From an uncultured Bdellovibrionales bacterium (GTDB lineage Bacteria > Bdellovibrionota > UBA1018 > CAIPTA01), in NCBI GenBank assembly GCA_964551325.1, contig CAZKBU010000003.1, positions 287,672 to 351,671 of the forward strand: a stretch of DNA of 64,000 bases, written 5' to 3'. A model generated the notes under the pieces. The model searched no databases. It saw only the letters and a list, made by a program, of their open reading frames with translations, and was not told the DNA's origin. This document shows, piece after piece, positions 16,497 through 63,000 of the stretch. Position numbers and translations under genes: made by a program. Numbering within the stretch: the stretch's first letter is position 1; each line of letters starts with the position of its first letter.

Positions 16497-16538
16497 ATGA
16501 GTTTCGTGCTAAGCAATGGGCACAATACCCAAATCATC

Positions 16539-45644: not shown

Positions 45645-45680
45645 CATTGTAGGTTCCGCCTCAACATTTCGGAGGGTTCC

Positions 45681-48363: not shown

Positions 48364-49349
48364 GTTTTCTTCTCTTCAGTGCCGACGCCTCCGCATCCTG
48401 GCTTCACTGGTGCGACGATGTGCCGAACGCGCAACGGACTCGCATCGAGCGTGATCTCGAGGAGTTTTCGCTTCTTCCCGCGGTTCAGGAGGATCCAATT
48501 CTTGCGCGTATGTTAGAGCTCCGGGAGGCTACACCGGAAGCTTTTCTCGAATGGATTCGTGCCCGCGTGAAATATGTTACCGGGCGCAAATTCGATCTCG
48601 ATGCTCCCGGAGTTACCGTGGTGTTGCGCGAGGGCGTGAACTATCCGCAGAAGCGAGAATTACCCTGGGGAGTCGCCGCCAAACAGCCGGCACCCGCTCA
48701 CGAGTCGCTGGAGCAGCCCAAAAGCGTAACAGAAATGTCGAACCTAGGATCAGCGGTGTTTCTTGATGGAAAACTCGCTGGCAATCTTTTGGGAATGCGA
48801 TTGCCCGGAATTGCCGAGCCGGTTCCCGTGACCTCGCCGCGAGTAGGAGTAGTGCAAATCGACCGGGGGCTCTTCCAGAGCCCCGATCCGGACAGACTCG
48901 CCGCTCGCCTTCATAGAGTGAGCACTCTCCTTCACGAGGCGCGCCACTCCGATGGAAACGGAAAGAGTCTGGGTTTTTTTCACTTTGTTTGCCCGGACGG
49001 ATCCGACTATCCGGGTGAAGAAGCCTGCGACGTGGCCGAAAACGGCTCCTACGCCATCGAAGCCCGGGCCTTGAAAATCTTCGCTTCCACTTGCGGAAAA
49101 GACTGCACAAAAAAAGAGCGGGAAATTCTCAGGGTAGAAGCCGCCGATATGCTTGCCCGTGTTTACGATGAGCTTCCCGCATTTTCCGGCGAAGATGCGA
49201 TGCCGCTAAGAAAAAAATGTCTGGAGCGCGGCGATCGATCAGAAGAGTGCCGAAAGGTGTTAACGGAGGCCGAGGGCGGGATGGTTCCGATCGTAAAGGC
49301 GTCCTGGTGGGACACGCGTCCTGAGACTCTCACACTGCCACGGGAATGA
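48333..49349 (+). CDS. secreted HEARH-motif Cys-rich family protein, paralogue 3
   Basis: ORF 48279..49349; probable start at Met19 (48333) giving signal-like LGLSFLLFSADASA; overlaps paralogue 2 by 31 nt; HRVSTLLHEARHSDGNGKSLGFFH; HEARH at 48933..48947. Confidence 0.65.
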   Translation: MGHYARILGLSFLLFSADASASWLHWCDDVPNAQRTRIERDLEEFSLLPAVQEDPILARMLELREATPEAFLEWIRARVKYVTGRKFDLDAPGVTVVLREGVNYPQKRELPWGVAAKQPAPAHESLEQPKSVTEMSNLGSAVFLDGKLAGNLLGMRLPGIAEPVPVTSPRVGVVQIDRGLFQSPDPDRLAARLHRVSTLLHEARHSDGNGKSLGFFHFVCPDGSDYPGEEACDVAENGSYAIEARALKIFASTCGKDCTKKEREILRVEAADMLARVYDELPAFSGEDAMPLRKKCLERGDRSEECRKVLTEAEGGMVPIVKASWWDTRPETLTLPRE

Positions 49350-51009
49350 TTCGGAACTGACCCACATCCACGAGGCCCTTGTCGGTGAGCTTAAGATGAG
49401 GGATCACCGGTAAGCTCAGAAACGCCAGTTGAAGGAACGGCTCTGCGAGGGAGCAGCCCGCGGCGTGGCTGGCAGCATGAAGGTCCCGCAAAGATTTCTC
49501 CACCCGATCGGCGGAGAGTGGAGTCATGAGGCCCCCGAATGGGAGAGCCAACTCGGCCATAACCGCTCCGTTATGGACCACGCAAAATCCGCCGCCGCTT
49601 CGAATCAAGGACTGGAAGGCGAGAGTCATGTCGTGAGTATCTGAACCCACGCAGATGAGATTATGACTGTCGTGTCCCACGCTGGAGGCGATCGCGCCGC
49701 GGAAGTTATCGCCAAATCCTTTCACATAACCGTTGGCCGGGCGGCTGCCATGGCCATAGCGCTCGAGAACTGAAAGTCGGGCCACTCCCGGAGCGTTGTG
49801 AGGAAGTGTGTGGTGATGGGTAATAATCTTTCCCTCTTCCACGCCGATTACATGCACATGACCCGCCGGACCTTCGAGGTCCTTCGGTGCGGGTGCAGCG
49901 GCACGTACCGTATTGGGAAAGGACGTCGCCGAAATCGTAGGGGTTGAAACCTCAGGTAGGGGAATCCCTCGGCAAAACACTTCGCGGATAGAAACCTGGC
50001 GAACGTCGTCGAGAAGCAGAAGGTCCGCTCGCCAACCCGGGGCCACAGCGCCCTTCCGGTCCGGGCCTCGATCCAGCCCGTAGTGCCGGGCCACGCTCCA
50101 GGAGCTGGCCCGGTAGGCTACCTCTGGTGCTACTCCCCCGCGTATCGCTTCCCGTACCAGCCAGTCAATGTGTCCTTCTCGGGCAATGTCGAGAGGGTTG
50201 CGGTCGTCGGTACAGAAGCCCACGCTCGTGGACGTGGCAAGCTTCACAAGCGGCAGAAGAGTGTGAAGGTCTTTGGCCACGCTTCCCTCTCGAATCCAAA
50301 CGGAAATTCCCTTGGTGAGCTTTTCCTCCGCTTCGGGTAGCTGGGAGGATTCGTGGCAGCAGGAAATTCCACACGCGGCATAGGCCGAGAGTTCGCGCCC
50401 CCGGAGGAGAGGGGCGTGGCCGTCGAGTGGGCGATCGGAGAATGCCTGAAGTTTCTCGTGAACGATCGGATCGCCATGGAGCACACCCGGAACGTTCATC
50501 ATCTCCGCAAGTCCAAGAGTCTTCGGATGATCCTTTAGCGGAAGAAGGTCCTTCGCTCCGAGCACCCCAGCCCCGTTGGTCTCCATTCCGGTGGCCGGCA
50601 CGCACGAGGGGAGCATCACCCTAAGATCGAGTGGGAGCGTCTCCGCAGCGCGAAGAAAATATCGAATTCCTTCCACGCCGATTACGTTGGCGATCTCATG
50701 AGGATCGGCGATCACGGTGGTGGTGCCGCGAGGAAGTACGGTAGAGGAAAAATTTTCCGGAATGAGCAGCGAACTTTCAATGTGCACATGGGCGTCGATG
50801 AAACCGGGTACAAGAAATTTTCCCCGTCCGTCGATCTCCCGAATGGCCTGAAGACCTGGCTCGAGTGCCACTATCACCCCATCGGCTATAGCCACGTCGC
50901 CCGTGTGCCAGGAGCAGGAAAAGACGTCGAGCCAAGTTACGTTACGGAAGATCAAGTCGCAGGGGGCTCGCCCTTGGGCGGCGTCGAGGCGTCGAAGTAG
51001 AGAGCTCAT
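49330..51009 (-). CDS. ade: adenine deaminase
   Basis: ORF runs to 51087; more likely start at Met27 (51009), removing the head-on start overlap with 51060(+); GFIDAHVHIESS metal-binding motif, adenine-deaminase subfamily of amidohydrolases. Confidence 0.8.
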   Translation of the reverse strand: MSSLLRRLDAAQGRAPCDLIFRNVTWLDVFSCSWHTGDVAIADGVIVALEPGLQAIREIDGRGKFLVPGFIDAHVHIESSLLIPENFSSTVLPRGTTTVIADPHEIANVIGVEGIRYFLRAAETLPLDLRVMLPSCVPATGMETNGAGVLGAKDLLPLKDHPKTLGLAEMMNVPGVLHGDPIVHEKLQAFSDRPLDGHAPLLRGRELSAYAACGISCCHESSQLPEAEEKLTKGISVWIREGSVAKDLHTLLPLVKLATSTSVGFCTDDRNPLDIAREGHIDWLVREAIRGGVAPEVAYRASSWSVARHYGLDRGPDRKGAVAPGWRADLLLLDDVRQVSIREVFCRGIPLPEVSTPTISATSFPNTVRAAAPAPKDLEGPAGHVHVIGVEEGKIITHHHTLPHNAPGVARLSVLERYGHGSRPANGYVKGFGDNFRGAIASSVGHDSHNLICVGSDTHDMTLAFQSLIRSGGGFCVVHNGAVMAELALPFGGLMTPLSADRVEKSLRDLHAASHAAGCSLAEPFLQLAFLSLPVIPHLKLTDKGLVDVGQFRIIPVAV

Positions 51010-51059
51010 AGAGGGAATGCTACCGCGGCTTTTGGAGGCACGCACACTTTTGTGCCAGA

Positions 51060-51929
51060 ATGACCGCGATGAAGACCGATGGAACAAAACGTTATGCTGC
51101 TGTGCTTTCTCTCACAGAGATGGGGCTCGGGAGCTTACTCCACTCCCTTCACATCCCTCTGGCCGGGCACGCCCTTTCCCTGAACCAGGGAGCGATTCTC
51201 ACATTCGCGCTCAAGCGAGCCGAAAACAGGCGAAAGGCCGTGGAAGGGAGCGCAGCGATTTCCTTGGCGGCCGCTGGAATGAAAGCCCTGTCCCCGGCGG
51301 GAAAGCGCCTCACTCCGATGCTGGGAATTTCAGTGCAGGGCTTTCTTTACGCGCTCGGCACGGCGCTGGGGGGGCGAAATCTGGCGGGGGCAGTGCTGGG
51401 AATGGCTCTCCTTTCCGTGTGGGCGTTTGCTCAGCCCGTGCTTTTGGCTTGGATCATTTTCGGCAAAGAGCTTTTTTATTCCGTTTTTGATCTTTGGCAG
51501 GGCTTGGCGGAAAAAATTGGGTTGCCGGTGGAGACTGGCATCTGGGTGTTGGCAGCGGTGGTGGCGTTGAAAGTACTAGCGGGAGTGGGCGTGGGAGCTT
51601 TGAGCTGGTTGGCAGCGCCCGCGCGCGAGGAGAGTTACATCGCAGGTCTTTCCGAGCGGGTAACCCGGGAGTTCCATCGCATGCGTGGTCCCGTGGAGGT
51701 TGAGTCGGGACGCAGGCTGGCGGTGCTTGCGCTGCGGGATATGGCGCGCCCGTGGTTTGTGGCGAGTTTCGGAGTTTCCTTGGCGTGTTTTTTCGCCTTT
51801 CGAGATAGCAACGTGGAAGCAGCCGTGGTCTATGGTTTTCGGGTTTTGTTGACGGGTTGGCTCGCGTTCTGGTTTTTTCGGTGGGCGGCCAAGCGATGGC
51901 AACTTTGGGAGAAATGGAATGAGAATTAA
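51060..51929 (+). CDS. hypothetical integral membrane protein
   Basis: 289 aa; 6-7 hydrophobic helices; sits inside the purine-catabolism cluster. Confidence 0.45.
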   Translation: MTAMKTDGTKRYAAVLSLTEMGLGSLLHSLHIPLAGHALSLNQGAILTFALKRAENRRKAVEGSAAISLAAAGMKALSPAGKRLTPMLGISVQGFLYALGTALGGRNLAGAVLGMALLSVWAFAQPVLLAWIIFGKELFYSVFDLWQGLAEKIGLPVETGIWVLAAVVALKVLAGVGVGALSWLAAPAREESYIAGLSERVTREFHRMRGPVEVESGRRLAVLALRDMARPWFVASFGVSLACFFAFRDSNVEAAVVYGFRVLLTGWLAFWFFRWAAKRWQLWEKWNEN

Positions 51930-52488
51930 GCCGCTGGCAGATTATCCGCTTCTGGTGCGCCTGATTTTTTGGGCGCAACGAAAAAAATACGGTGAGGTGC
52001 TTTTGCCAGCTCGAATCTGGGGTCGTTCGCCGAAGCTGCTCTATGGTCTTCAGTGTTTTTATCGAGCTATTGATCGTAAAAGTTCCCCGATTGAACCCGC
52101 TCTACGGGCTTTGATCAATGTGAAGGTTTCTCAGATCAACCACTGTGCGTTCTGTGTAGACATCAGCAGTTCGCTTCTCGAAAAACGCGGAGTGTCGGCT
52201 GAAAAAATAGCGGCCTTGCCCCATTTTATGGAGACCGCGCTTTTTTCCTCAAGGGAACGTGTTGCATTAGCCTACGCTGTGGCTATCACTCTGCCGGAGA
52301 GAAGAGTTGACGATGCTTTGTTTCAGGAATTGAGAAAAGAGTTTTCCGAGGACGAGGTTGTGGAGCTTACGGCCCTGATCGGGTACCAAAACCTCTCTAG
52401 CAAATTCAACGCTGCTTTGGAGGTGCCGCCCCAGGGGTTTTGTCTTGTAGGGCGGGCTTCATACTCAGAAGCTCCGCGGCCACACTGA
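51919..52488 (+). CDS. carboxymuconolactone decarboxylase / AhpD-like family protein
   Basis: INHCAFCVD CxxC-type AhpD core motif; 189 aa; 83-nt convergent overlap with xdhC. Confidence 0.55.
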   Translation: MRIKPLADYPLLVRLIFWAQRKKYGEVLLPARIWGRSPKLLYGLQCFYRAIDRKSSPIEPALRALINVKVSQINHCAFCVDISSSLLEKRGVSAEKIAALPHFMETALFSSRERVALAYAVAITLPERRVDDALFQELRKEFSEDEVVELTALIGYQNLSSKFNAALEVPPQGFCLVGRASYSEAPRPH

Positions 52489-53221
52489 TCGCAATTTCCT
52501 GCGGATCATTGCCGCCGATTGAAAGGCCGATGGGCGAGCGCAGCTCCTCGATCAGTGCAGGCGGAACTCCACTTTCTTCCAGTTCCCGGCGCATTTTTCC
52601 CGCTTTCACTTGGCTGCCCATGGCACCGATGAACGGGGCCGACGGATGCACGCGAAACAGTTCACGAAGAATCGGCATGTCCGTGGCATGGCCCTGGGTC
52701 ATCACCACGAAAAACGCCGTAGATGGAAGTGATGCCACAAGATTTGCAGGTTCCGCCACCAGCTCAACTCGGAGATTCGGGGCTGATGGAAGGCGAGCAA
52801 TCCACTCATTCCTCGGATCAACGCAGGTGATTCGGCAGGAAAGCGGCAGCAACACGCGCACCAGGGCCTGGGCCACATGGCCCGCTCCAAAGATCACGAT
52901 TTCCCAGGCGCTTGAGGCGTGGGGTTCAAAGAGGTAGGTGGTCTCGCCTCCGCAGGTCATGCCGATGTCGCGCTGAAGATTCCAAGTAGCGAGCCATGGC
53001 GCGGTTTCCATTTCTGCGAGCATTCTCTGAGATTCTCTGATGCAGCGAGCTTCGATCTTACCGCCCCCCACAGTGCCGTGATGTAAGCCCCTTGCCGTAA
53101 TAATCGCCTTTGCCCCCGGATCCGACGGCGCACCACCGCGAACTCCCACCAGGGTGACCACCACAAATGGTGTGCCCAAACGCATAAGTTCTTCGGCTGC
53201 GGAAAAATGTGTCAACGCCAC
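52406..53221 (-). CDS. xdhC: xanthine dehydrogenase accessory/maturation factor XdhC
   Basis: XdhC/CoxI-like N-domain plus Rossmann-like VIFGAGHVAQALVRVL; stop/start overlap with xdhB. Confidence 0.7.
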   Translation of the reverse strand: MALTHFSAAEELMRLGTPFVVVTLVGVRGGAPSDPGAKAIITARGLHHGTVGGGKIEARCIRESQRMLAEMETAPWLATWNLQRDIGMTCGGETTYLFEPHASSAWEIVIFGAGHVAQALVRVLLPLSCRITCVDPRNEWIARLPSAPNLRVELVAEPANLVASLPSTAFFVVMTQGHATDMPILRELFRVHPSAPFIGAMGSQVKAGKMRRELEESGVPPALIEELRSPIGLSIGGNDPQEIAISVAAELLSMKPALQDKTPGAAPPKQR

Positions 53222-55572
53222 TCCTCGAATCGCTCTGGATCAATGGCACGAAAAACCTCTTCCTGCGTGGCTGGGAGCTCCAGTTCGGGAAGCTTTTCCT
53301 TCCATGACGGCAATCCTCGGAGGGCGTCGTGAATTGCGGTCCAAACGGAAATCGCCAAAAGGAGAGGAGGTTCTCCAACCGCTTTCGTGCCCCGCACGTT
53401 TACGCTGTTGTGGGGATTATCCAGTAGGTCGATGTTAAATTCCCGCGGCGTATCCTGAATGTTCGGAATCTTGTAGGTGGAGGGGGCGTGGGAGAGGAGC
53501 AGGCCGCCTTCCGAGTAGTGAAGTTTTTCCGTGGTCACCCATCCCATGCCTTGCACGAAAGCTCCCGCCACCTGACCTCGGTCGAGAGACTCGTTCACGG
53601 GGCGTCCTAAATCCATCAGAATGTCCACCCGTCGAACCTTTGTTTCGCCAGTGTGAGAGTCGATCTCCACTTCCGAGCACGCGGCACCTTGGGTGAAGTA
53701 GAGAAACGCTCTTCCCTGACCAGTGAGTTTATTGAAGGTGAGGTGAGGAAACTTGTAGTGAGCATACTCCGACAGAGAAACTCGGTTCAGGTAGGCCTCG
53801 TTAACCACATCTTGAAACGAAACTTTTCGCTTCGGATCGGCGCGATCCACCACATATCCGTTACAAAAATCCACCGCTGGTTCTTCCGCTGGAATCACCG
53901 CTTCGGACTCGGTGCCGAGGCCGGCGGTTTTGGCGGCCCAACGCTCGCTCGGGAGCTGCATCAGGCGAAGGGCGATATGACCAAGTCGGTGACGGATGCG
54001 AAAGGAGGCCACTTCAGCGGCGGCTCCATTCAAGTCGGTACCCGACGATGCGGCAGTGGGAGAGGTGTTGGCGTTTTTTTCCGTAGACGTGGGCATCAGC
54101 CGCACCGATACGGCGGGTAAACCGAACACATCGGCCACGATCTTTCCAATTCGCGTATTTACACCTTGGCCCATTTCCGTGGCGCCAGTGCTGACCTGAA
54201 GCGAGCCGTCTCGGTGAATCACAACAAGAGCATTTGCTTGGTTCAGGTACCGAGTCGTGAATGAGATACCGAATTTCACGGGCGTGAGAGAGAGTCCTCG
54301 CCGCGTGGCTTGCGACTTCCGATTATGAGTCTCGATCTCTCGTCTACGAGCCCGATACGCGCAGCTTTTCTCTAAGCGGGAGAAAAGTTCGGGAAGTAGG
54401 TTATTTTCCACCTTCTGGCCGTAGGGGGTTATGTCGTGGTCCGGCCCCTCGTAACAGTTGATCCGTCTCACATCGAGCGGGTCCATTTTCAGAAAGTGGG
54501 CGATCTCTTCCACGATACGTTCGATGGTGGCCACGCCCTTGGGGCCGCCAAAACCGCGAAACGCCGTGTGGGGATGAAAATTGGTCCGGCAAACCTGGCC
54601 GCGCACTTGAAAATCGGGAATGAAATACGCGTTGTCGGTGTGGAGCATCGCCCGCTCCATGATGGCAGTGGAGAGATCCGCGCACGCGCCACCGTCGGAG
54701 AAAAGATTCACATCAAGAGCGAGGATACGGCCCTTCTGATCGAATCCCACCTTCCAATGGTTTTCGAAGGGGTTCCGCTTACCAGTGATCACCATGTCGT
54801 CGTCTTTGGTGAGCGCGATGCGGGCCGGTCGTCCGAGTTTTTGGGCGGCGAGGGCGGCATACGCGGCGAATGGAGCAGCCTGGGATTCTTTTCCGCCAAA
54901 AGCACCGCCCATGCGCTTCACCACACAAATCACCCGGGAGTAGTCGATGCCGAGAGCGTGAGCTACCACATGCTGCACCTCGGAGGGATGTTGGGCGGAA
55001 GAGTGGACCTCGATCACACCGTCTTCCCGGGGAATGGCGGCGGCGGCCTGGCTTTCGAGATAGAAGTGCTCTGCGCCTCGAATCACGATGGTACCTTCCA
55101 GACGATGTGGAGCGCTTAGGAGGGCGCTTTCAGCATCTCCGCGGGCAATTGTTCTTTCGAATCCAATAAACGACTTGCGGCTCCTAGCCTCTTGGATGGA
55201 GAGAATGGGATTCAGAATTTCCCAATCCACCTTCACTAAGTCTCGAGCCAGGCGCGCAGCGGTGGGGGAGTCGGCGACCACGAGCGCATAGGGCTCGCCG
55301 CAATAATTTACTTCTTCGTGGGCGAGAAGAGGTTGATCCTGAAAAACTGTGCCCCAGAGGTTCTCGTGAAAATCGTCGGCTGTGAACACGGCCACCACGC
55401 CGGGTGCCTTTGTGGCAGCGAGAGTGTGGAGGCGCTTAATACGGGCCCGGGCATGAGGGCTCCAACACACCTCCACATAGACCTCGCCGCGCACGGGCGG
55501 ACGATCGTCGATATACTCGCTGCGCCCCGTAACGTGACTTCGCGCAGAATCGTGGGAGGCATCGCGTTTCAC
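53212..55572 (-). CDS. xdhB: xanthine dehydrogenase molybdopterin-binding subunit
   Basis: 786 aa; aldehyde oxidase/xanthine dehydrogenase a/b hammerhead and MoCo-binding domains (GGAFGGKE, QGMGW motifs). Confidence 0.9.
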   Translation of the reverse strand: MKRDASHDSARSHVTGRSEYIDDRPPVRGEVYVEVCWSPHARARIKRLHTLAATKAPGVVAVFTADDFHENLWGTVFQDQPLLAHEEVNYCGEPYALVVADSPTAARLARDLVKVDWEILNPILSIQEARSRKSFIGFERTIARGDAESALLSAPHRLEGTIVIRGAEHFYLESQAAAAIPREDGVIEVHSSAQHPSEVQHVVAHALGIDYSRVICVVKRMGGAFGGKESQAAPFAAYAALAAQKLGRPARIALTKDDDMVITGKRNPFENHWKVGFDQKGRILALDVNLFSDGGACADLSTAIMERAMLHTDNAYFIPDFQVRGQVCRTNFHPHTAFRGFGGPKGVATIERIVEEIAHFLKMDPLDVRRINCYEGPDHDITPYGQKVENNLLPELFSRLEKSCAYRARRREIETHNRKSQATRRGLSLTPVKFGISFTTRYLNQANALVVIHRDGSLQVSTGATEMGQGVNTRIGKIVADVFGLPAVSVRLMPTSTEKNANTSPTAASSGTDLNGAAAEVASFRIRHRLGHIALRLMQLPSERWAAKTAGLGTESEAVIPAEEPAVDFCNGYVVDRADPKRKVSFQDVVNEAYLNRVSLSEYAHYKFPHLTFNKLTGQGRAFLYFTQGAACSEVEIDSHTGETKVRRVDILMDLGRPVNESLDRGQVAGAFVQGMGWVTTEKLHYSEGGLLLSHAPSTYKIPNIQDTPREFNIDLLDNPHNSVNVRGTKAVGEPPLLLAISVWTAIHDALRGLPSWKEKLPELELPATQEEVFRAIDPERFEEWR

Positions 55573-56990
55573 AGGGATCCCCCCGCTTCGTCGAAGAACT
55601 TCTTCAGAAAAGCTTCGGCGAGTCCCCGTCGAAAAGCACTCGATCCGCGGAGATCGGATAGTGGCGAGATTTCTTTTTGCAGAGCGTTTCGTGCTTCGTG
55701 GAATGCCTCTTTATCGAGACGACGCCCAAGGAGCGCCTTCTCCGTGGCCGGCAGGCGAAGAGCGGTTGCGGCCACGCCGCCGTAGGCGATGGAGATCTGT
55801 TCGAGAGTTTCATTCCGTTTCTTCCAACGAAATGCCGCGTTTACGGCGGAAATATCGAGATCCTTTCGCTGGGATGCCTTGAAGATGCGAACCACTTCAT
55901 TCTTCTTCGGAAGATCGAAAATCACATGGGTCACGATTTCTCCCGGACGGAGAGCGGTTTTCTTGTAGCCGAGGAAAAAATTCCGGAGTGGAACTTTGCG
56001 CTTTCCCTTGGGTCCGTGGACTTCCACATCCGCCTCGAGCACGAGGAGCGCGGGAGGGGTGTCGGCGATTGGAGAAGCGTTCACCACGTTGCCCACGAGA
56101 GTCGCTACGTTCTTGATTTGCGGTGAGGCGAACAGATCCAGAAATCGGCCGAGCTCGGAGTTTTTTGTAGCTTGCCTAACGTTGGCCAAAGTAACCCGGG
56201 CACCGACCCGAAGCCGGCCTTTGGTTGCTTTCATTTCATAAAGCTCCGAAACCTGGTGCAGGCTCAGAAGATGAGTGAGGCGGTGCCGATATTTATTGTG
56301 AACCACCCCTAAATCAGTGGCTGCACCTGCGATCCGCACTTGCTTATTTTTTTTGATCCACGCCAGGGCGGCACGGAGAGTGGTCGGGGCGAAAAAGGAA
56401 TAGTCGGCAGTCTCAAGAAGGAGGGGTTTTCGGAGCAGAGTCCTCAACTCCCGCTTTTGGGCCGGGGAAAGAAATCGCTTTTCCACCGACTCGCAGGCGC
56501 TCACATTCACCGAGCATGCCGCGTCCAAAATCGACTGGTAGCCGGTGCAGCGGCATAGGTTGCCGGTGAGGGCATTGGCGGCGTCCTTCTGGGTGATGCC
56601 TTCGTGGGTGGGGATTTTCTTCTCCACGAGGCCCGTGAGCGACATCACGAATCCCGGTGTGCAGTATCCGCATTGGGAGCCATGACAATCCACCATGGCC
56701 TGTTGAACTGGCGACAGCTTTTGCTCTGTACCGAGGGCTTCCACCGTGATGAGGCTGGAGCCGTGGAGCTGTCCGAGCGGGGCGATGCAGGAGTTGATGG
56801 GAAGAAACCGCCCCCGCTTTTCGAGGGGAAACCAACGCAAGACTGTGCAGGCGCCGCAGTCGCCCTCAGCGCAGACGACCTTGGTGCCCGTCAGGCCTCG
56901 TTCCCTGCGAAGGTATTCCGCGAGCATCAGGGGGGCGTGGTCGGCGCCGACCTCCACCCGTTCTCCATTCAGATGGAAGACGATTTTCAT
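55569..56990 (-). CDS. xdhA: xanthine dehydrogenase small subunit (2Fe-2S + FAD-binding)
   Basis: CAEGDCGACTV and CGYCTPG [2Fe-2S] motifs; FAD-binding PCMH domain; ATGA overlap with xdhB. Confidence 0.9.
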   Translation of the reverse strand: MKIVFHLNGERVEVGADHAPLMLAEYLRRERGLTGTKVVCAEGDCGACTVLRWFPLEKRGRFLPINSCIAPLGQLHGSSLITVEALGTEQKLSPVQQAMVDCHGSQCGYCTPGFVMSLTGLVEKKIPTHEGITQKDAANALTGNLCRCTGYQSILDAACSVNVSACESVEKRFLSPAQKRELRTLLRKPLLLETADYSFFAPTTLRAALAWIKKNKQVRIAGAATDLGVVHNKYRHRLTHLLSLHQVSELYEMKATKGRLRVGARVTLANVRQATKNSELGRFLDLFASPQIKNVATLVGNVVNASPIADTPPALLVLEADVEVHGPKGKRKVPLRNFFLGYKKTALRPGEIVTHVIFDLPKKNEVVRIFKASQRKDLDISAVNAAFRWKKRNETLEQISIAYGGVAATALRLPATEKALLGRRLDKEAFHEARNALQKEISPLSDLRGSSAFRRGLAEAFLKKFFDEAGGSL

Positions 56991-57037
56991 GGCCCTCTCA
57001 GGGTGCTAAACCGCGGAATCGGTGTCAATATCGGTGC

Positions 57038-58183
57038 ATGGAACTATGGTTGGAATATCTACTTCGTTTCTCCCATCTGGTGGCGGGGATCGCCTGGATC
57101 GGGAGCTCCTTTTATTTCATCTGGCTCGACAGTAGCTTCGAACCGCCGGAGACGCCGCGTCGTAACGTCGAGGGTGAGCTCTTCATGGTCCACGGTGGTT
57201 TTTACTACCAGGTGGAGAAGAAAAAGATCTATCCCGGCGAACTTCCCCGGGTGCTGCATTGGTTCAAGTGGGAGGCGACTCTCACCTGGGTGACCGGGAT
57301 CGTGCTCCTGGCGGTGCTTTACTTCCTTAAAGGGGCGAGTCTTCTGATAGATCCGTCTGTGATGGCTCTCACCCAGGCCCAGGCGGTTACCCTGGCGCTG
57401 GGGCTCATCGCGGGTTGCTGGCTGGTCTATGATCTTCTCTGGAATCCACGGGTACCGAAGCCGCTGAGCACGGCCGTGTCGGTGGTTTTCTTCGCACTTC
57501 TGATTTGGGGCCTTACCCGCGTATTTAGCGGGCGCGGTGCTTTCATCATGACGGGAGCGATTTTCGGCAGTCTCATGTTGGCCAATGTGTGGATGAGAAT
57601 TCTCCCTGGGCAAGCAAAAATGCTGCGTGAAGCACAGGAGGGAAGAGTTCCCGATTACTCGGTGGGATTGAAGTCGAAAACCCGCTCCGTACACAACACC
57701 TACTTCACGTTTCCGGTGCTTTTCATCATGCTGAGCAACCATTACCCGCAGATCTACAACCACGCTTGGAACTGGCTTCTGTTGATCGTGCTTGCGGTGA
57801 GCGGCGCTCTCACACGCCATGCGATGGTCACGAAGCGGCCCTTAGAGCGATGGACCCTTTTCCCTGCGGCGATGGGACTTGCCGCGTTGGTATGGGCTTC
57901 GGGTCACACCGGATCTGCGTCCATGGGGGGCGGCGCTCGACCTACCTGGGCGGAAGTGGCGCCGGTAATCGAGAGGCGTTGTGCGTCTTGCCACAGCCTC
58001 CGGCCCACCGATGATGTATGGAAGGTGGCGCCTCTTGGCGCGATTTTCGATTCAGAGAATTCTTTGCGAGCGAAAGCAGAAAAAGTAATGCTTCAAGTGG
58101 TCACTGCCCGCACGATGCCTCTTGGCAATAAAACCGCGATGACCGACGAGGAGCGGGACCTAGTGCGTCGGTTCTTGGAATAG
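57038..58183 (+). CDS. candidate membrane cytochrome-c urate hydroxylase (PuuD-like: multi-TM DUF989-type domain + C-terminal haem-c domain)
   Basis: 381 aa; ~7-8 TM helices followed by a C-terminal soluble domain with CASCH haem-binding motif; divergently adjacent to xdhABC. Confidence 0.5.
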   Translation: MELWLEYLLRFSHLVAGIAWIGSSFYFIWLDSSFEPPETPRRNVEGELFMVHGGFYYQVEKKKIYPGELPRVLHWFKWEATLTWVTGIVLLAVLYFLKGASLLIDPSVMALTQAQAVTLALGLIAGCWLVYDLLWNPRVPKPLSTAVSVVFFALLIWGLTRVFSGRGAFIMTGAIFGSLMLANVWMRILPGQAKMLREAQEGRVPDYSVGLKSKTRSVHNTYFTFPVLFIMLSNHYPQIYNHAWNWLLLIVLAVSGALTRHAMVTKRPLERWTLFPAAMGLAALVWASGHTGSASMGGGARPTWAEVAPVIERRCASCHSLRPTDDVWKVAPLGAIFDSENSLRAKAEKVMLQVVTARTMPLGNKTAMTDEERDLVRRFLE

Positions 58184-58206
58184 ACGCGCGGGGCGGGCAA
58201 TAAGGA

Positions 58207-60084
58207 ATGACTTCAACCAACAAGCTCGATTTTTCCGTGTGGGCTGAAGTTTGGATTGGCCGCACGAAGTTTACGGTGTTCGGCCTTTTTTCGCTCGGCC
58301 TTCTTCTCCATTGGGTTCTAGGCGGAAAATTTCACTGGCTTGCCTTGTATTGTTCTCTGGGTTTCATGGCAGCTGCGTGGGGGAGCTGGCCCAGAGAGGG
58401 CGTGGCCACGTCAAAGTTTCTCCCGTGGGTTACTCTATGTTTGGTTTTGGTCGCGGGGGGAATCCACTTTGAAGATTTGGCCCAACGTCCGATCTGGAGT
58501 GACGAAGATTTGCAGGTGGGGCCGTTGTTATTTGGTGCTTCTGGAGTGGAGGCTGCCACAAACGTGATGCAACCGCCCCTGTTTCACGAAATTTCTGGAC
58601 TAAGCATGCGGTTGCTGGGGCCGTCTTCCTTTTCCGCAAGGCTAGTGTCTTGGTTTGCGGGCACAGTCAGTGTCGGCATAACGTGGTTGATCGCATTGTC
58701 TTTGGGGGCGCCTTGGTGGTTTGCGCTGTCGGCTGCTACCGCTGTTTTGGGCAATAATTTGTTGATTTCATATTCTCAAGAGGCGAAACCAATCGCATTA
58801 GGATTCTTGTTTTCTCTTTTTTTCCTTCACTCGCTGCTCTCTCGAAAGTCGGTGAAATCGTTTAGCGCAGCCAGTTCCACATTTGCCTTACAGGCGGCTA
58901 TTGGTTTCCAGGGGCCCATTCTGGCCGTTCTTCTGGGCGCGCTTCGCAGAAATAAGGGCGTTCTGATTGGTCTTCTGTGGAGTGCCCCATTTTTTTTGCA
59001 GATTGTCGGTGGTCCTCAAACACGAACCTTTGTAGAGCTTCTTTCACCGGCCGGACTGTTGGCGCGGTGGAATATGATGATCGAAGCGCTCAGTCGACAG
59101 ATTCCAGAAACGTATTCGGGATCTGAATATATTTTTCTTTATATTCTCGGCTTAGAGATGGCGCGATGGTTGGGTAGGCTGAAAATTCCTTCCTTACTCC
59201 CCGTAGTCATTACCCCTCTGTGCCTCTTGGTGGGGCACTTCCTTTTTGTGAACAATGTGTTCGCCTTACGCTATGGCATCGTGGTGATACCCGTTGCTGT
59301 GCTGTGGCTGGTGTATGCTCTTGCGCATAGTCGCTCTATGAAAATGACTGTGCTGCAGGGGATTGCCTCTGTTTGTCTGATTTTTTGGGGAGTAACTTCC
59401 TGGACATTAAAACGCGATAAAATTTATGAGTATCGGGGTCGTGAAACCATCCAATACGCAAACAGCCTTCAGTCGAAAGTGAAAAATCCTGTATTGGTGT
59501 TTCAATTCACTTTCAATCCACCGAAGTCCTCCGAGTCTACTGGGTTGCCGACCACTCGACTTTTGGATTCAAATGGTTTTCCGTCTTCGTTCAAGTATTT
59601 TGATCTATGGGAAACCAAGGAATATCAAAGTGAGATCATTGGGCGTTTGGCTAGGGAAAATCCCGATGCCCGCCGAGCGTTGATTCTTATGCCGCGATCA
59701 ATTTCAAAGGTTTCCCATGAGTTCTGGAGTACTAAAACTATCCCGGGTGTGAAAGTCGAGAATGTGGTGGTGCTCGACTCGCACATGCCCCGAGACGCCA
59801 CGGATCTGATTGATGTCACTTGGACCGGGGCGCCTACAGACGGTCTATCCCGACTCTTTCACAGCATGGACACCTTAATGGCGGATGAGCACCTAAAGCT
59901 CAACCTTCGATTGGTACTTGTGGCTTTAGCACTTAATTCGGGTGATTGCGGGACAGTGAGCAGGGAATGGCAAAGGCTTTTAGCGTTTCTCAAGTTTACC
60001 GGGCAGGATGGCCATCTCAGTATGCGTGTATTTAATACGGAGAGAGAGAAGTTGTGCAGGACGGGAGCCTTCGCGTCGCAGTAA
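58207..60084 (+). CDS. polytopic membrane protein, GT-C/ArnT-PMT-like (inferred)
   Basis: 625 aa; ~11 TM helices in the N-terminal two thirds, soluble C-terminal third; similar architecture to the two island-encoded proteins. Confidence 0.35.
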   Translation: MTSTNKLDFSVWAEVWIGRTKFTVFGLFSLGLLLHWVLGGKFHWLALYCSLGFMAAAWGSWPREGVATSKFLPWVTLCLVLVAGGIHFEDLAQRPIWSDEDLQVGPLLFGASGVEAATNVMQPPLFHEISGLSMRLLGPSSFSARLVSWFAGTVSVGITWLIALSLGAPWWFALSAATAVLGNNLLISYSQEAKPIALGFLFSLFFLHSLLSRKSVKSFSAASSTFALQAAIGFQGPILAVLLGALRRNKGVLIGLLWSAPFFLQIVGGPQTRTFVELLSPAGLLARWNMMIEALSRQIPETYSGSEYIFLYILGLEMARWLGRLKIPSLLPVVITPLCLLVGHFLFVNNVFALRYGIVVIPVAVLWLVYALAHSRSMKMTVLQGIASVCLIFWGVTSWTLKRDKIYEYRGRETIQYANSLQSKVKNPVLVFQFTFNPPKSSESTGLPTTRLLDSNGFPSSFKYFDLWETKEYQSEIIGRLARENPDARRALILMPRSISKVSHEFWSTKTIPGVKVENVVVLDSHMPRDATDLIDVTWTGAPTDGLSRLFHSMDTLMADEHLKLNLRLVLVALALNSGDCGTVSREWQRLLAFLKFTGQDGHLSMRVFNTEREKLCRTGAFASQ

Positions 60085-60097
60085 AATAAGACGAAGC

Positions 60098-63000
60098 TTA
60101 TTTCGAAAACACCCTAATTCGATTCACTCCGCCGTCGGGCCATGTCTCGAGTCTGATCTCGGATATTTCACCGGCATAATTCACGGGAATAATCTTGCGG
60201 TTGCCGGCAAAGGCTTTTACCGGTACTCGTCCGCCGGAAAGGTCTATCCAGCCCGTGGGTGTTCGCCCCCAGAGAGCCACTTCCACCGGGTTGTTGTTTA
60301 CAAAAAAGGTGAAGTCGAGCTCCACTTTTTTGATTCGGGCGGAGTGTTCAAGTGCGATCGTGACCTCTTCGTGATGTCCGGGAACTCGACTGCGGGCGCT
60401 CTCGAGTCCGTCGAACATGTGAATGGGCGGGAAGGGCGAGATTACCTGAGCTGCCGGCCCATAGTGCTCATTGGAAGCATGCACCACTCTGCTACCGGCG
60501 AACGGAATCGTGAGGGGCTTTTTCGCTTTGGGGATTGCGTCCGAATAGCGACCGAAGCCGGGGCTAAATCCTGGAGGTGGCTCACTCCACAGGCCGAGAC
60601 GGGTGAGGCCGCCATCGGGGCCGGCTTCCACTCGAATTTCTTGAAATTCTTCCGTGAGTGAATTCAGATCCACGCGGCAATAGCCGTGGCCCACAAGCTT
60701 CACGGCAGGGAGAAACTCCTTCCACGGATCTTTTGAAGACCGTCGACCCAGCAGTCGCGCCCATTCCATCTGATTCCCATCGTGGAAGCGGGTTGAAAGC
60801 TCCACAAATCGAACGCGGCCCGGGCGCAATAGGCGAAGCTCCAAATACTCTTGCCCTGTTTCGTTGTGCCGGGCTGTTTCCCAGCTATCCATGATTTTCC
60901 CTTGCCGTCCGAAGAGCTCTGGATCAAAAACCGGCTCGTGAGAACTCACCAGGTTTTCCGCGCGCGCGAATTTCTGGTTCGAGCAGCGCAAAACGAAGGC
61001 TCCCGCAGCGAGATTCGATGCGGCTGCTGCGCTCACCGGTCCCTTCACGAGAATTTCCTCCGGGAGGTCAGGCAAAAAGGCGTCGAAGAGAAGCTTCTTG
61101 TAGCCGAGATTCACGATTTGCTCTTGTGGTAAGCTGCTCGACTGAAAATCGTGAGTGAACTCTCCTACGCCCTGAATGCCGAGGGCGCGAATCAGGGTCT
61201 GGGCGACTTCCGCCACAAAAGGCACGGCTTCATTATCGCCTTCAGAAAAAATAACGAATCCTTTGCCACGGTCCGGGCCCGCAAAACAGTGAACATAGAT
61301 GGCCCGGTAGCCTTCGTTGGCACCCTGATGAATCATCAAGCGATTCGAGCCTGCTTCGGCCACAAAAACACCGAGGCCCATAAAGCATCCCATGAAATCC
61401 CGGCAGCCTCGGTCGGTTCCATGGAGCATCTGCACTGCTGTGTCGTGGGAGATTGGTCCCGCCCCGTTCACGCTATGATAGGCGTCTTCCAAAGACTGGA
61501 GGAAACGGGCCATTCCTCGAGCTGTGGCGTAGCCTCCGGCAGCGAAAGCGGGGAAACGCAGATGACCAGGTGCGAGCCCATCGATTTCGGAGGTGTCGAG
61601 GGTGATTTCGGGAAATGCTTGGAGAAATTCTTTCGTGGCCAGGGCCGCAGGCTTTCCCGTGTTTTTTTCCACAAGGTGTTGGAGCACTAAGTAGCCTCCA
61701 CCCGAGTAGTGAAACTCTCGTCCCGGCTTGGCGATGACCTTCACCGGATCGTAACCGTGTTTACCCTGGATAAGCTCTTCCACTGGAGGCACCGGCCCTG
61801 AAAATCCCTTCACATAGTGCATGGAAAGGGCGCTGTGGCTCATGAGGTGGGCCAAGGTTACTCCCTCCATGCCCGGAATTTCCTCCACTTTGCGATTCAC
61901 GTCGCGGAAAAGTTCACAGCAATAGGCGCTCGCCACGGTTTTACTGAGCGACGCAATTTGAAACTTCGAATTCGGCTGGGCACATCCGAGAGCAATTTCC
62001 TGCACATGACCGAGGTGAATAACGGCGAGGGAGGCGGCCCGGATTCCGTGTTTCTTGCGTACCACCTCAAGGCCTGAAAGTCCGCAGGCTTCGTGAATGC
62101 GTTTTCGTGAAATTTCCCAAAGTGCTTCGCGGGCGGCAGTAATCTCTTCGTTTCGAGAGCGGGATATTCGTGCTTGCAGAATTTTTAGGAGTTCCTCCCC
62201 GGTTTTTCCTTTCGCCGAAACGAGAAACTTGAAACCGAACTTTTTTCGATACTCATCTCCCAAGGAACAAAGAACGGCCTTTTCTGTTTTTACTTCCGCC
62301 TGCTCGCCTGCCGCCAGAGCGTCTAAAGTGCGGGAGGATTGACCGATATCGCCGTGAAAAGACGCGGCCTCCTGAATCTCCGCTTCGGAAAAACTCTTCA
62401 CGAGGCTTTCCGCAAAGGGCAGGTCCACAACCGCCCGGCGGGTCATTTCATCTGCAAATCGGCGGCACCCGCACACTTCAAACCAGTGATTCCATTTCTC
62501 CACCTTGGGGGGGAGACGGAACTTATCCGCGTCCAAACGGACGGCGGCGGCCCAGGGGTCGGAAGCATTGCGTACTTCATCTAGTGTGAACGGGAGGAGA
62601 AGTTCAGTGGCGAACTCCGCGGGTTCGGGATCGGTCATGAGCTGGAGCATGAGCCGCTGAGCGATTGGGTACCAGCGAGACGTGCGCTCATCCCATTTTA
62701 CTTGCACGATTTTCTTCTCATTCGAAAGATCGCGACGAATGAAATTCATCTCTTCGTGAACGATGCAAAGGAAATCTTCCAAGGAGAAGCGTCCGTGGCG
62801 AATCTCGTGCCAGACTTCCCATCGCGAACGCTCGGCAGTGGCCAGGTCGTCCATCACACGCACGGCTTCCCCTTCCACCACCGTAGGGAGAGCCACGCAC
62901 CCGTTTCCGCTCAACCAGTCCGTGAGGTACTGAAGTGACTGGAACACGTTGTAGCGGATTTCGTCTGGGTGATGATTGGGAATGAAATCGGACTCTTTGA

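What the first reader, a model, noticed from the sequence alone, without database searches (positions are those of the whole stretch)
49330..60084. Compact purine-catabolism locus with a PuuD-like membrane cytochrome-c urate hydroxylase, and no HIU hydrolase in view
Adenine deaminase, xdhC-xdhB-xdhA and a divergent gene encoding a multi-TM protein with a C-terminal CxxCH haem domain (57038..58183) form a contiguous locus. The last matches the architecture of the integral-membrane cytochrome-c urate oxidase family (PuuD/DUF989), not cofactor-less uricase or FAD-dependent HpxO. The downstream fusion protein supplies OHCU decarboxylase and allantoicase. A transthyretin-like 5-hydroxyisourate hydrolase is not present in this window. 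A GT-C-like membrane protein, an AhpD-like CMD protein and another membrane protein are interspersed in the cluster without an obvious role.
Basis: partly seen in the sequence, partly recalled or inferred. Interest (0 to 1): 0.55.

Follow-up and report, generated by a model that had tools for sequence, protein, structure and literature searches.

The report
Purine-to-malate locus with unassigned hydrolase domain
This is an ordinary bacterial gene cluster for breaking down purines with a known membrane-bound urate oxidase; the "missing" enzyme almost certainly lies just past the window edge. The part worth attention is an uncharacterised beta-lactamase-like domain inside a giant fusion enzyme, which probably does the allantoin-opening step.

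Summary
The described genes are all present. They are adenine deaminase, xdhC-xdhB-xdhA, and a divergent PuuD-type urate oxidase (Urate_ox_N E=4e-96, 8 hydrophobic helices, CASCH haem motif, 39% identical over its full length to annotated PuuD).

No HIU hydrolase is in the window, but this is an edge effect. The neighbouring fusion gene (60098 to beyond 64000, minus strand) is cut about 185 codons after its start. In 85 of 96 related Bdellovibrionota loci a canonical HIU hydrolase sits directly 5' of that gene.

The serine-hydrolase domain defines a distinct family.
- It always lies between OHCU decarboxylase and allantoicase, or stands alone in protists, often with a peroxisomal PTS1 ending.
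- Its catalytic motifs are at least 97% conserved.
- No canonical allantoinase (AllB or PuuE) occurs in the 1.48 Mb around these genes.

I infer, at about 0.5-0.55 probability, that it is a third, non-homologous allantoinase.

The 625-aa "GT-C-like" protein is an ORFan. The 289-aa membrane protein is a conserved unknown that often lies next to xdh.

The parts
49330..51087 (-). Adenine deaminase (ade): adenine to hypoxanthine
   Evidence: TIGR01178 539.5 bits against a 472.5 cutoff. Pfam Adenine_deam_C E=1.9e-51 and Amidohydro_1.
51060..51929 (+). 289-aa all-helical membrane protein of unknown function, from a small family that is often next to xdhABC
   Evidence: No Pfam or NCBIfam hit. 22 unnamed homologues, the named ones from Bdellovibrionales. 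Adjacent to xdh genes in L027, L060, L079 and L128, but not in L127. AF2 model pLDDT 87 with 11 helices. No PDB fold analogue, all E>0.1.
51919..52488 (+). CMD/AhpD-like protein (YciW-related); overlaps the stop of the previous gene; role in the locus unknown
   Evidence: PF02627 E=3.2e-13. NF053654 YciW-related E=3e-43 but below its cutoff. Not recurrent in related loci.
52406..53221 (-). xdhC, xanthine dehydrogenase maturation factor
   Evidence: TIGR02964 170.4 bits against a 161.6 cutoff. Pfam XdhC_CoxI and XdhC_C.
53212..55572 (-). xdhB, molybdopterin subunit of xanthine dehydrogenase
   Evidence: TIGR02965 889.6 bits against an 849.5 cutoff.
55569..56990 (-). xdhA, Fe-S/FAD subunit of xanthine dehydrogenase
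   Evidence: TIGR02963 449.1 bits (cutoff 467). Pfam Fer2, Fer2_2, FAD_binding_5 and CO_deh_flav_C.
57038..58183 (+). PuuD-type integral-membrane cytochrome c urate oxidase. DUF989/Urate_ox_N domain at aa 4-284; cytochrome c domain at about aa 300-381.
   Evidence: PF06181 E=4e-96, profile positions 6-291 of 295. 8 hydrophobic helices. 39% identity over aa 8-381 to annotated 'urate hydroxylase PuuD' of Pseudoalteromonas.
57980..57994 (+). CASCH haem c attachment motif (aa 315-319). Axial Met360 and Arg373 follow.
   Evidence: The Met lies 41 residues after the His, and the Arg 13 residues after the Met, matching the invariant Cys340/Cys343/His344/Met385/Arg398 pattern in PMC4562309. Weak matches to Cytochrome_CBB3 (E=0.006), Cytochrom_C and Haem_bd.
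58207..60084 (+). 625-aa ORFan membrane protein: about 12-13 hydrophobic segments, then a soluble tail of about 225 aa. Lower GC. Not part of the conserved module.
   Evidence: Only homologue is a 98% identical Logan protein. No Pfam hit at E<=5 and no PDB hit. GC 0.50 against about 0.57. In related loci puuD lies close to the fusion gene and nothing similar to this protein occurs; it clusters with nothing in the all-against-all comparison.
62570..64000 (-). Fusion protein, domain 1: malate synthase A-like. The N-terminal ~185 aa are cut off by the window end.
   Evidence: MS_TIM-barrel E=5e-19 and MS_C E=6e-12. Reading frame is open to base 64000. 31% identity to E. coli AceB. AceB positions D117, E119, D120, R166, E250, D278 and D447 are invariant in the alignment. 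Full-length orthologues are 1530-1600 aa.
62087..62485 (-). Fusion protein, domain 2: OHCU decarboxylase (aa 499-631)
   Evidence: PF09349 E=1.9e-17, 64.7 bits against a 24 cutoff. NF010372 E=5e-19.
61046..62068 (-). Fusion protein, domain 3: beta-lactamase/PBP-fold serine hydrolase of an uncharacterised family; proposed allantoinase
   Evidence: PF00144 E=1.6e-17. AF2 pLDDT 91.5. Foldseek best hits are a family VIII esterase, LACTB, R61 DD-peptidase, D-amino-acid amidase and AmpC, with TM 0.6-0.69 and only 13-20% identity. No PDB sequence hit. The family always sits between OHCU decarboxylase and allantoicase.
61937..61954 (-). ASLSKT: the SxxK catalytic motif of the serine-hydrolase domain
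   Evidence: Invariant in alignment A1. Across about 200 family members: Ser 178/184, Lys 180/184, Tyr of YSG 201/202, His of HQG 208/213.
60098..61009 (-). Fusion protein, domain 4: allantoicase (two repeats, aa 991-1292)
   Evidence: PF03561 E=3e-39 with 2 stretches. TIGR02961 E=1.6e-43, covering profile positions 9-323 of 324.

Best explanation
The window ends inside a purine-to-malate catabolic locus of a Bdellovibrionota bacterium.

Proposed pathway:
1. Adenine deaminase makes hypoxanthine.
2. XdhAB, matured by XdhC, oxidises hypoxanthine to xanthine and then to urate.
3. The membrane enzyme PuuD oxidises urate to 5-hydroxyisourate. It passes the electrons to its own periplasmic c-type haem rather than making H2O2.
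4. A canonical transthyretin-like HIU hydrolase converts 5-hydroxyisourate to OHCU. Its gene is predicted to lie 0.56-0.9 kb beyond base 64000, directly 5' of the truncated fusion gene.
5. The four-domain fusion protein (about 1,490 aa when complete) does the rest.
   - Its OHCU decarboxylase domain makes (S)-allantoin.
   - Its allantoicase domain splits allantoate into ureidoglycolate and urea.
   - Its malate synthase domain condenses the final glyoxylate with acetyl-CoA.
   - The beta-lactamase/PBP-fold serine-hydrolase domain between the decarboxylase and allantoicase most likely opens the allantoin ring through a Ser-Lys-Tyr acyl-enzyme mechanism. That would make it a non-homologous allantoinase.

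What is shown: gene identities, domain order, conservation of motifs and synteny, and absence of AllB/PuuE near these genes.

What is inferred: the position of the HIU hydrolase (probability about 0.85-0.9), the allantoinase activity (about 0.5-0.55), and who cleaves ureidoglycolate (unassigned).

The 625-aa ORFan and the CMD protein are probably not part of the pathway.
For: PuuD:
- PF06181 E=4e-96.
- Full-length 39% alignment to annotated PuuD, including the CxxCH, the MPL motif and the Arg.
- 8 hydrophobic helices.
- These features match the family definition in PMC4562309.

HIU hydrolase off-window:
- The fusion ORF is open to base 64000.
- Its first visible residue aligns about 185 aa into full-length orthologues.
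- 85 of 96 related loci have UraH within 1.5 kb 5' of the fusion start.
- The closest relatives, L088, L089 and L115 (74-75% identity), have it abutting the start.
- Typical gene order is PuuD, HIUase, fusion, with xdhABC nearby.

Fusion:
- Pfam domain order in the window and in full-length orthologues.
- Malate synthase catalytic and Mg-binding residues are retained.

Serine-hydrolase domain:
- It is a distinct family, with scores dropping sharply outside it.
- Its architectures are Blac alone, Blac-Allc, OHCU-Blac-Allc and MS-OHCU-Blac-Allc, always in that order. One contig has MS, a 160-aa gene and Blac-Allc as three separate genes.
- Catalytic motifs are at least 97% conserved.
- Protist members end in PTS1 in 16 of 50 cases, which fits peroxisomal uricolysis.
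- tblastn over 1.48 Mb around the fusion genes gives PuuE 0, AllA 0, AllC 0, AllE 0 and AllB 1. The single AllB hit sits in a pyrimidine-degradation operon.
- Allantoinase is the only pathway step adjacent to both the OHCU decarboxylase step and the allantoicase step.
- Unlike the HIU and OHCU steps, allantoin hydrolysis does not occur spontaneously: dal1 mutants cannot use allantoin (PMC3646786). That paper also notes an allantoinase-allantoicase complex in amphibians.
Against: - The DNA beyond base 64000 was not seen. 9 of 96 related loci show no HIU hydrolase in view.
- No whole genome could be scanned, so a canonical allantoinase elsewhere in these genomes is not excluded.
- Ureidoglycolate lyase is also missing from the loci, so the unknown domain could serve that step instead.
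- I know of no biochemical precedent for a PBP-fold enzyme acting on a hydantoin.
- The second motif is YSG, not the usual YxN.
- No activity was tested for any protein here.
Confidence: 0.7

Rival explanations
1. The organism truly lacks a transthyretin-like HIU hydrolase. 5-hydroxyisourate is hydrolysed spontaneously or by a non-homologous enzyme, for example the beta-lactamase-fold domain.
For: No HIU hydrolase in the 64 kb. 9 of 96 related loci show none in view. HIU decays spontaneously at a slow rate (PMC3646786).
Against: The window stops inside the fusion gene, exactly where 89% of relatives carry the HIU hydrolase. The beta-lactamase-fold domain co-occurs with a canonical HIU hydrolase in the same operon in 85 loci, so it is not that enzyme's replacement.
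Confidence: 0.08
2. The serine-hydrolase domain acts after allantoicase. It cleaves ureidoglycolate (amidohydrolase or urea-releasing) to give the glyoxylate that malate synthase uses. Allantoinase is encoded elsewhere in the genome.
For: AllA-type ureidoglycolate lyase is also absent from all loci. The domain is most often fused directly to allantoicase, as in the Blac-Allc proteins. An allantoicase-ureidoglycolate hydrolase fusion exists in Cryptococcus (PMC3646786).
Against: The domain always lies N-terminal to allantoicase and C-terminal to OHCU decarboxylase, which mirrors pathway order for allantoinase. Every other step would then be clustered except the one that cannot occur spontaneously. 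The known ureidoglycolate lyase reaction is not a hydrolysis of the kind that Ser-Lys enzymes perform.
Confidence: 0.17
3. The beta-lactamase-fold domain has no catalytic role in purine breakdown. It could be a structural spacer or oligomerisation module, or a peptidase or esterase unrelated to the pathway.
For: Fold neighbours are esterases, DD-peptidases and LACTB. LACTB is deposited as a filament (PDB 7ulw, 'CryoEM structure of human LACTB filament').
Against: Catalytic Ser, Lys, Tyr and His are kept in at least 97% of about 200 members. The family is found only with ureide-pathway partners or as a PTS1 protein in protists.
Confidence: 0.06
4. The multi-TM cytochrome at 57038-58183 is not a urate oxidase. 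It is a transporter or a different redox protein, and urate is oxidised by another enzyme elsewhere.
For: PuuD activity has only genetic support in one organism. No in vitro assay exists (PMC4562309).
Against: It meets all sequence criteria of the family and sits between xdhA and the uricolytic fusion. PuuD homologues accompany the fusion in 64 loci, and no other urate oxidase was noticed among the recurrent neighbour genes, though uricase and HpxO were not searched for by sequence.
Confidence: 0.05

Closest known systems
PuuD (COG3748, DUF989/Urate_ox_N plus cytochrome c) urate oxidase of Agrobacterium fabrum (Doniselli et al. 2015, PMC4562309)
   Same: Full-length Urate_ox_N domain, 8 hydrophobic helices, and a C-terminal CxxCH with Met and Arg at the family's spacing. 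Placed among xdh and uricolysis genes. 38-39% identical to proteins that NCBI names urate hydroxylase PuuD.
   Different: None at the level of sequence features. It comes from Bdellovibrionota rather than Pseudomonadota. Relatives in Bacteriovoracaceae replace the cytochrome with a cupredoxin-like domain, but the window's copy does not.
Known allantoinases: AllB/DAL1 (amidohydrolase metalloenzyme) and PuuE (polysaccharide-deacetylase fold)
   Same: Proposed to catalyse the same reaction, (S)-allantoin to allantoate, at the same place in the pathway, between OHCU decarboxylase and allantoicase.
   Different: No sequence or fold relationship. The window domain is a Ser-Lys-Tyr PBP/beta-lactamase-fold protein (PF00144). 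The activity is inferred only.
Class C beta-lactamase / R61 DD-peptidase / family VIII esterase / D-amino-acid amidase / LACTB fold (Pfam PF00144)
   Same: Same fold (Foldseek probability 1.0, TM 0.6-0.69). SxxK, Tyr and H-x-G motifs; the last resembles the HTG of R61.
   Different: Only 13-20% identity and no PDB sequence hit. The second motif is YSG. Further family-specific invariant motifs are MHYV, FPxFAAGG and HQxANxGFR. Found exclusively with ureide-pathway domains or a PTS1 ending.
Known fusions of uricolytic enzymes: B. subtilis PucL (OHCU decarboxylase-uricase; from my own knowledge), plant allantoin synthase (OHCU decarboxylase-HIU hydrolase), Cryptococcus Dal2,3,3 (allantoicase-ureidoglycolate hydrolase), and the NCBIfam PRK13797 allantoicase model of 521 positions
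   Same: Consecutive pathway enzymes are joined in one polypeptide, presumably to hand on unstable intermediates (PMC3646786).
   Different: Four domains, including malate synthase and a domain of unknown activity. I found no description of this architecture in the held literature.
S. cerevisiae DAL7 and animal peroxisomal malate synthase-like proteins
   Same: A malate synthase dedicated to removing glyoxylate made from allantoin (PMC3646786; PMC8919083).
   Different: Here it is covalently fused to the ureide enzymes. It is only 31% identical to AceB and scores below the TIGR01344 cutoff, although the catalytic residues are kept.

Membership tests
PuuD urate oxidase (DUF989 + cytochrome c) | Full-length DUF989/Urate_ox_N domain | tested here: met
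   PF06181 E=4e-96, 322 bits against a 26.9 cutoff, profile positions 6-291 of 295.
PuuD urate oxidase (DUF989 + cytochrome c) | Eight transmembrane helices before the cytochrome domain | tested here: met
   Eight hydropathy peaks between aa 14 and 289. This is a crude Kyte-Doolittle scan, not a topology predictor.
PuuD urate oxidase (DUF989 + cytochrome c) | C-terminal c-type cytochrome: invariant CxxCH, a Met about 40 residues later, and an Arg 13 residues after the Met | tested here: met
   C315-A-S-C-H319, M360 (41 residues after the His) and R373 (13 after the Met). All align with the same residues of an annotated PuuD. Weak cytochrome c HMM hits with E=0.006-0.04, as also reported for the family in PMC4562309.
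PuuD urate oxidase (DUF989 + cytochrome c) | Gene neighbourhood of purine catabolism | tested here: met
   Divergent from xdhA. The uricolytic fusion gene lies downstream, convergent with it. The same linkage is seen in 64 related loci.
PuuD urate oxidase (DUF989 + cytochrome c) | Urate oxidation without H2O2, dependent on haem c | not testable with these tools
   Needs genetics or biochemistry.
Transthyretin-like HIU hydrolase | Protein of about 105-120 aa with an N-terminal HxLD motif and a C-terminal YRGS | tested here: not met
   None in the window. Present directly 5' of the orthologous fusion gene in 85 of 96 related loci, a position that lies beyond base 64000 here.
Serine beta-lactamase / PBP fold (PF00144) | Fold plus the SxxK, YxN and K/H-x-G motifs | tested here: met
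   PF00144 64 bits against a 27 cutoff. Foldseek probability 1.0 to AmpC, R61 and esterases. SLSK and HQG are present. The second motif is YSG: the Tyr is kept and the Asn is replaced by Gly.
Allantoinase AllB/DAL1 (cyclic amidohydrolase) | Amidohydrolase TIM barrel with a binuclear metal site; TIGR03178 | tested here: not met
   No such gene in the locus. The only weak TIGR03178 hit is the N-terminus of adenine deaminase, at 27.9 bits against a 357.85 cutoff. There is 1 AllB-like hit in 1.48 Mb of related loci, and it lies in a pyrimidine-degradation operon.
Allantoinase PuuE (polysaccharide deacetylase fold) | Homology to PuuE | tested here: not met
   tblastn with Pseudoalteromonas PuuE gives 0 hits in the window and in about 118 related loci.
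Malate synthase A | MS TIM barrel and C-terminal domain, catalytic Asp and Arg, Mg ligands Glu and Asp | tested here: met
   PF01274 and PF20659 match. AceB positions R166, E250, D278 and D447 are invariant in the alignment; their catalytic roles are from my memory of the AceB structure papers. TIGR01344 scores only 121.8 against a 594.5 cutoff, partly because the domain is truncated and divergent.
OHCU decarboxylase | PF09349 domain | tested here: met
   64.7 bits against a 24 cutoff, profile positions 41-154 of 155. TIGR03180 is below its cutoff, 66.5 against 139.4. Catalytic residues were not checked.
Allantoicase | Two allantoicase repeats (PF03561) | tested here: met
   134.7 bits with 2 stretches. 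TIGR02961 covers positions 9-323 of 324 but scores below its cutoff, 148.7 against 277.9.
   About 12-13 hydrophobic segments and a soluble tail fit the general shape. There is no Pfam hit at E<=5, no PDB hit and no homologues for building a model.

The most novel reading that the evidence does not exclude
The beta-lactamase/PBP-fold domain (61046-62068, minus strand) founds a third, non-homologous class of allantoinase, a serine hydrolase rather than a metalloenzyme. It would be shared by predatory Bdellovibrionota, as part of a malate synthase-OHCU decarboxylase-allantoinase-allantoicase mega-enzyme, and by diverse protists (haptophytes, chrysophytes, dinoflagellates, ichthyosporeans), where it is a peroxisomal PTS1 protein or is fused to allantoicase.
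Probability: 0.5. Interest if true: 0.75.

Novelty: new variant of a known kind. Interest (0 to 1): 0.55.

Why it matters
The PuuD locus itself only adds a Bdellovibrionota example to a family described in 2015. The 'missing' HIU hydrolase is not a real gap.

The value lies in the fusion gene. It links an uncharacterised serine-hydrolase family to the ureide pathway by repeated domain fusion, conserved synteny and peroxisomal targeting.

If that family is an allantoinase:
- It would be a third independent origin of this activity.
- It would assign a small-molecule metabolic role to a PBP/beta-lactamase-fold family.
- It would fill an annotation gap in the purine and nitrogen recycling of predatory bacteria and of ecologically important marine protists.

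The claim can be tested directly with one recombinant protein.

Tried and rejected
- PDB sequence searches with the serine-hydrolase domain, PuuD and the 625-aa protein found nothing useful.
- Genomic context of stand-alone homologues P0014 and P0016 was uninformative, because their contigs are eukaryotic (neighbours with eEF1A-family GTPase and SMC domains).
- P0001 and P0008 turned out to be contig-end fragments of the large fusion, not shorter architectures. The 'split' genes on L129 and L130 are probably frameshifts, since the OHCU domain spans the called gene boundary.
- I considered that the serine-hydrolase domain might be the missing HIU hydrolase. I rejected this because a canonical HIU hydrolase sits in the same operon in 85 loci.
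- I considered that the AllB-like gene in L063 might be an allantoinase. I rejected this because it lies in an operon of aldehyde dehydrogenase, CN-hydrolase and class III aminotransferase genes, which I read as pyrimidine degradation.
- I tried to recover the window's own contig. The exact PuuD protein is found only on two 5-kb Logan contigs that do not reach the fusion's 5' end. The best metagenome relatives are 75% identical.
- The 289-aa membrane protein gave a good AF2 model but no fold match in the PDB.
- An Rfam scan of the whole window found no riboswitch or other RNA family.
- Promoter and terminator scans around puuD were at chance level.
- Six literature searches found no paper that links a beta-lactamase-fold protein to allantoin or ureide metabolism. 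The library lacks most subscription journals, so this is not proof of absence.

Full report
**1. What is in the sequence**

- Adenine deaminase, 49330-51087(-): TIGR01178, above cutoff.
- xdhC, 52406-53221(-); xdhB, 53212-55572(-); xdhA, 55569-56990(-).
- Divergent from xdhA by 47 nt, a 381-aa protein at 57038-58183(+) that matches Pfam Urate_ox_N (DUF989) at E=4e-96 over nearly the whole profile.
- A 289-aa membrane protein, 51060-51929(+), and a CMD/AhpD-like protein, 51919-52488(+), lie between ade and xdhC.
- A 625-aa membrane protein, 58207-60084(+), follows puuD.

Homologues place the organism in Bdellovibrionota. The closest named relatives are Bdellovibrionales MAGs. The exact PuuD protein occurs only on two short metagenome contigs.

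**2. The PuuD assignment holds**

The paper that defined the family (PMC4562309) lists its features:
- an 8-helix DUF989 domain;
- a C-terminal cytochrome c with a strictly conserved CXXCH;
- an invariant Met about 40 residues later;
- an invariant Arg 13 residues after the Met.

The window protein has eight hydropathy peaks between residues 14 and 289. It has C315-A-S-C-H319, M360 and R373. It aligns at 39% identity over residues 8-381 with a Pseudoalteromonas protein annotated as urate hydroxylase PuuD, and these residues are in register. The isolated C-terminal 92 residues give weak hits to Cytochrome_CBB3, Cytochrom_C and Haem_bd, the same weak-similarity picture reported in the paper. This is a new member of a known family.

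**3. The 'missing' HIU hydrolase is a window-edge effect**

The window contains no HIU hydrolase. No ORF ends in Y[RK]GS, and tblastn with a real UraH gives only noise.

However, the large gene at 60098-63979(-) does not start at the ATG the ORF tool reports. The 21 bases up to position 64000 are in frame with no stop codon. The first visible residues align with position ~91 of the malate synthase A model and about 185 residues into full-length orthologues.

I collected 80 loci from species-representative genomes and 36 from metagenomes that encode this protein. In 85 of the 96 loci with at least 450 nt of upstream sequence, a canonical transthyretin-like HIU hydrolase lies within 1.5 kb 5' of the fusion's start. 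It is 105-120 aa, with STHILDT near the N-terminus and HVPLLLxPxGYSTYRGS at the end. It is on the same strand in 66 loci, often with its stop abutting the fusion start, and divergent in 19. The closest relatives, at 74-75% identity (L088, L089, L115), have the abutting arrangement. The common gene order is PuuD, HIUase, fusion, with xdhABC nearby.

The expected position in this genome is therefore about 0.56-0.9 kb beyond the window.

**4. The fusion protein**

Pfam finds four enzymes in one chain:
- malate synthase (MS_TIM-barrel and MS_C);
- OHCU decarboxylase (aa 499-631);
- a Beta-lactamase PF00144 domain (aa 642-920);
- allantoicase (aa 991-1292, two repeats).

Full-length orthologues of 1530-1600 aa show the same order. 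The malate synthase part is only 31% identical to E. coli AceB. It keeps AceB positions D117, E119, D120, R166, E250, D278 and D447. These include the residues I recall as the catalytic Asp and the Mg ligands, so it is probably active. A dedicated malate synthase for glyoxylate from allantoin has a precedent in yeast DAL7 (PMC3646786).

**5. The beta-lactamase-fold domain**

A search of 5.8 billion proteins with this domain found a compact family. Scores were 455-92 bits and then fell to 58 bits or less. An exhaustive profile search recovered the family's architectures:
- the domain alone (390-455 aa);
- domain-allantoicase (711-808 aa);
- OHCU decarboxylase-domain-allantoicase (about 1,000 aa);
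- the four-domain form.

The order is always the same. One contig has malate synthase, a 160-aa gene and domain-allantoicase as three separate genes in that order.

Stand-alone members come from eukaryotes: Phaeocystis, Epipyxis, Sphaeroforma, and contigs whose neighbours have eEF1A-family GTPase and SMC domains. A dinoflagellate protein, from Effrenium, carries the allantoicase fusion. Sixteen of 50 stand-alone members end in a strict PTS1 tripeptide such as SKL, ARL, SRL or AKM. That is far above chance and fits peroxisomal urate degradation.

The AlphaFold model is confident (pLDDT 91.5). It matches family VIII esterases, LACTB, R61 DD-peptidase, D-amino-acid amidase and AmpC at TM 0.6-0.69, but only 13-20% identity. 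There is no PDB sequence hit.

The catalytic motifs are conserved across about 200 members:
- Ser of SxxK, 178/184;
- Lys of SxxK, 180/184;
- Tyr of YSG, 201/202;
- His of HQG, 208/213.

This indicates an active enzyme.

**6. Which reaction?**

The locus and its relatives encode every step from urate to malate except two: allantoinase and ureidoglycolate lyase.

I ran tblastn over 1.48 Mb around the fusion genes with E. coli AllA, AllB, AllC and AllE and with Pseudoalteromonas PuuE. UraH was found in 89 loci and PuuD in 64. There was no PuuE, AllA, AllC or AllE, and a single AllB-like gene. That gene sits with aldehyde dehydrogenase, CN-hydrolase and class III aminotransferase genes, which I read as a dihydropyrimidinase in a pyrimidine-degradation operon.

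The domain cannot be the HIU hydrolase, because it co-occurs with one. Four points favour allantoinase:
- Allantoinase is the only step adjacent to both of the domain's fusion partners.
- It matches the domain's position in the chain.
- It is a cyclic-amide hydrolysis, which suits a Ser-Lys-Tyr acyl-enzyme mechanism.
- Unlike the HIU and OHCU steps, it cannot be skipped: dal1 mutants do not grow on allantoin, whereas uro2 and uro3 mutants are leaky (PMC3646786).

That paper also cites an allantoinase-allantoicase complex in amphibians.

I put allantoinase at about 0.5-0.55, a ureidoglycolate-cleaving role at about 0.17, and a non-catalytic or unrelated role at about 0.06. The main weaknesses are that no whole genome could be scanned for a distant allB or puuE, and that nothing was assayed. 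Six full-text searches found no paper that links this fold to ureide metabolism.

**7. The interspersed genes**

- The 625-aa protein is an ORFan. Its only homologue is 98% identical. It has no Pfam or PDB match and lower GC, 0.50 against about 0.57. Nothing similar to it occurs in related loci, where puuD lies close to the fusion gene. 'GT-C-like' remains an untested impression. The protein is probably a lineage-specific insertion.
- The 289-aa protein belongs to a small unnamed family. It lies next to xdh genes in L027, L060, L079 and L128, but not in L127. It models as an all-helical membrane protein (pLDDT 87) with no PDB analogue. A purine transport role or a role linked to xanthine dehydrogenase is a guess.
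- The CMD protein is real, but it is not conserved in related loci.

**8. Verdict**

The PuuD interpretation is supported. The emphasis on a missing HIU hydrolase is not.

The locus is an ordinary PuuD-type purine catabolic cluster in an unusual phylum. That hydrolase is the best candidate for a third type of allantoinase.

Noticed in passing
Related loci, e.g. L027:5546-7192 (Peredibacter sp. HCB2-198), L014:5594-7219, L045:5560-7206: Of 56 PuuD homologues next to the fusion gene, 27 carry the CxxCH cytochrome c, as the window copy does. The other 29 (about 540-560 aa where complete, mostly from Bacteriovoracaceae-type genomes) have no CxxCH. Instead they have a C-terminal cupredoxin-like domain with His...Cys-x2-His-x3-Met, which hits blue-copper proteins, amicyanin and pseudoazurin in the PDB (5fc9, E=2e-4), followed by a CarboxypepD_reg-like domain. 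The PuuD paper states that CXXCH is strictly conserved, so a copper-domain PuuD looks undescribed.
   Followed up: partly
window 51060-51929 (+): A conserved membrane protein family without any Pfam, NCBIfam or PDB relative. It has invariant polar residues in its helices (H28, N42, K75, Q93, Q125, K171, R261, R274). It is repeatedly adjacent to xdhABC in Bdellovibrionota, and its function is unknown.
   Followed up: partly
window 58207-60084 (+): A 625-aa ORFan with about 12-13 hydrophobic segments and lower GC (0.50), inserted between puuD and the fusion gene. Only a 98% identical copy exists in 5.8 billion proteins.
   Followed up: partly
window ~14800-19700 (-): A low-GC stretch (0.44-0.49 against about 0.57). 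It holds two ORFs of 555 and 575 aa without Pfam matches and a GDSL-lipase/TPR protein. It is flanked by an FHA-GGDEF diguanylate cyclase (19654-20580) and an arginase-family protein (20590-21540). It may be acquired DNA.
   Followed up: no
window 45603-46793, 47473-48363, 48279-49349 (+): Three paralogous proteins (396, 296 and 356 aa) with no informative Pfam match lie just upstream of the purine locus. The first has a lipoprotein signal match. They cluster together in the all-against-all comparison.
   Followed up: no
L091, L092, L093, L095, L052, L057, L078, L080, L114: Nine related loci have the fusion gene but no HIU hydrolase in view, despite at least 0.8 kb (in most cases several kb) of upstream sequence. 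I did not examine whether the gene has moved elsewhere or has been lost in these lineages.
   Followed up: no
P0014, P0017, P0020, P0022, P0032, P0045, P0047, P0082, P0083, P0096 and others: Eukaryotic stand-alone members of the serine-hydrolase family end in PTS1-like tripeptides (SKL, ARL, SRL, AKM). The same family in predatory bacteria and in protists suggests gene transfer between the two. I did not examine the direction.
   Followed up: partly
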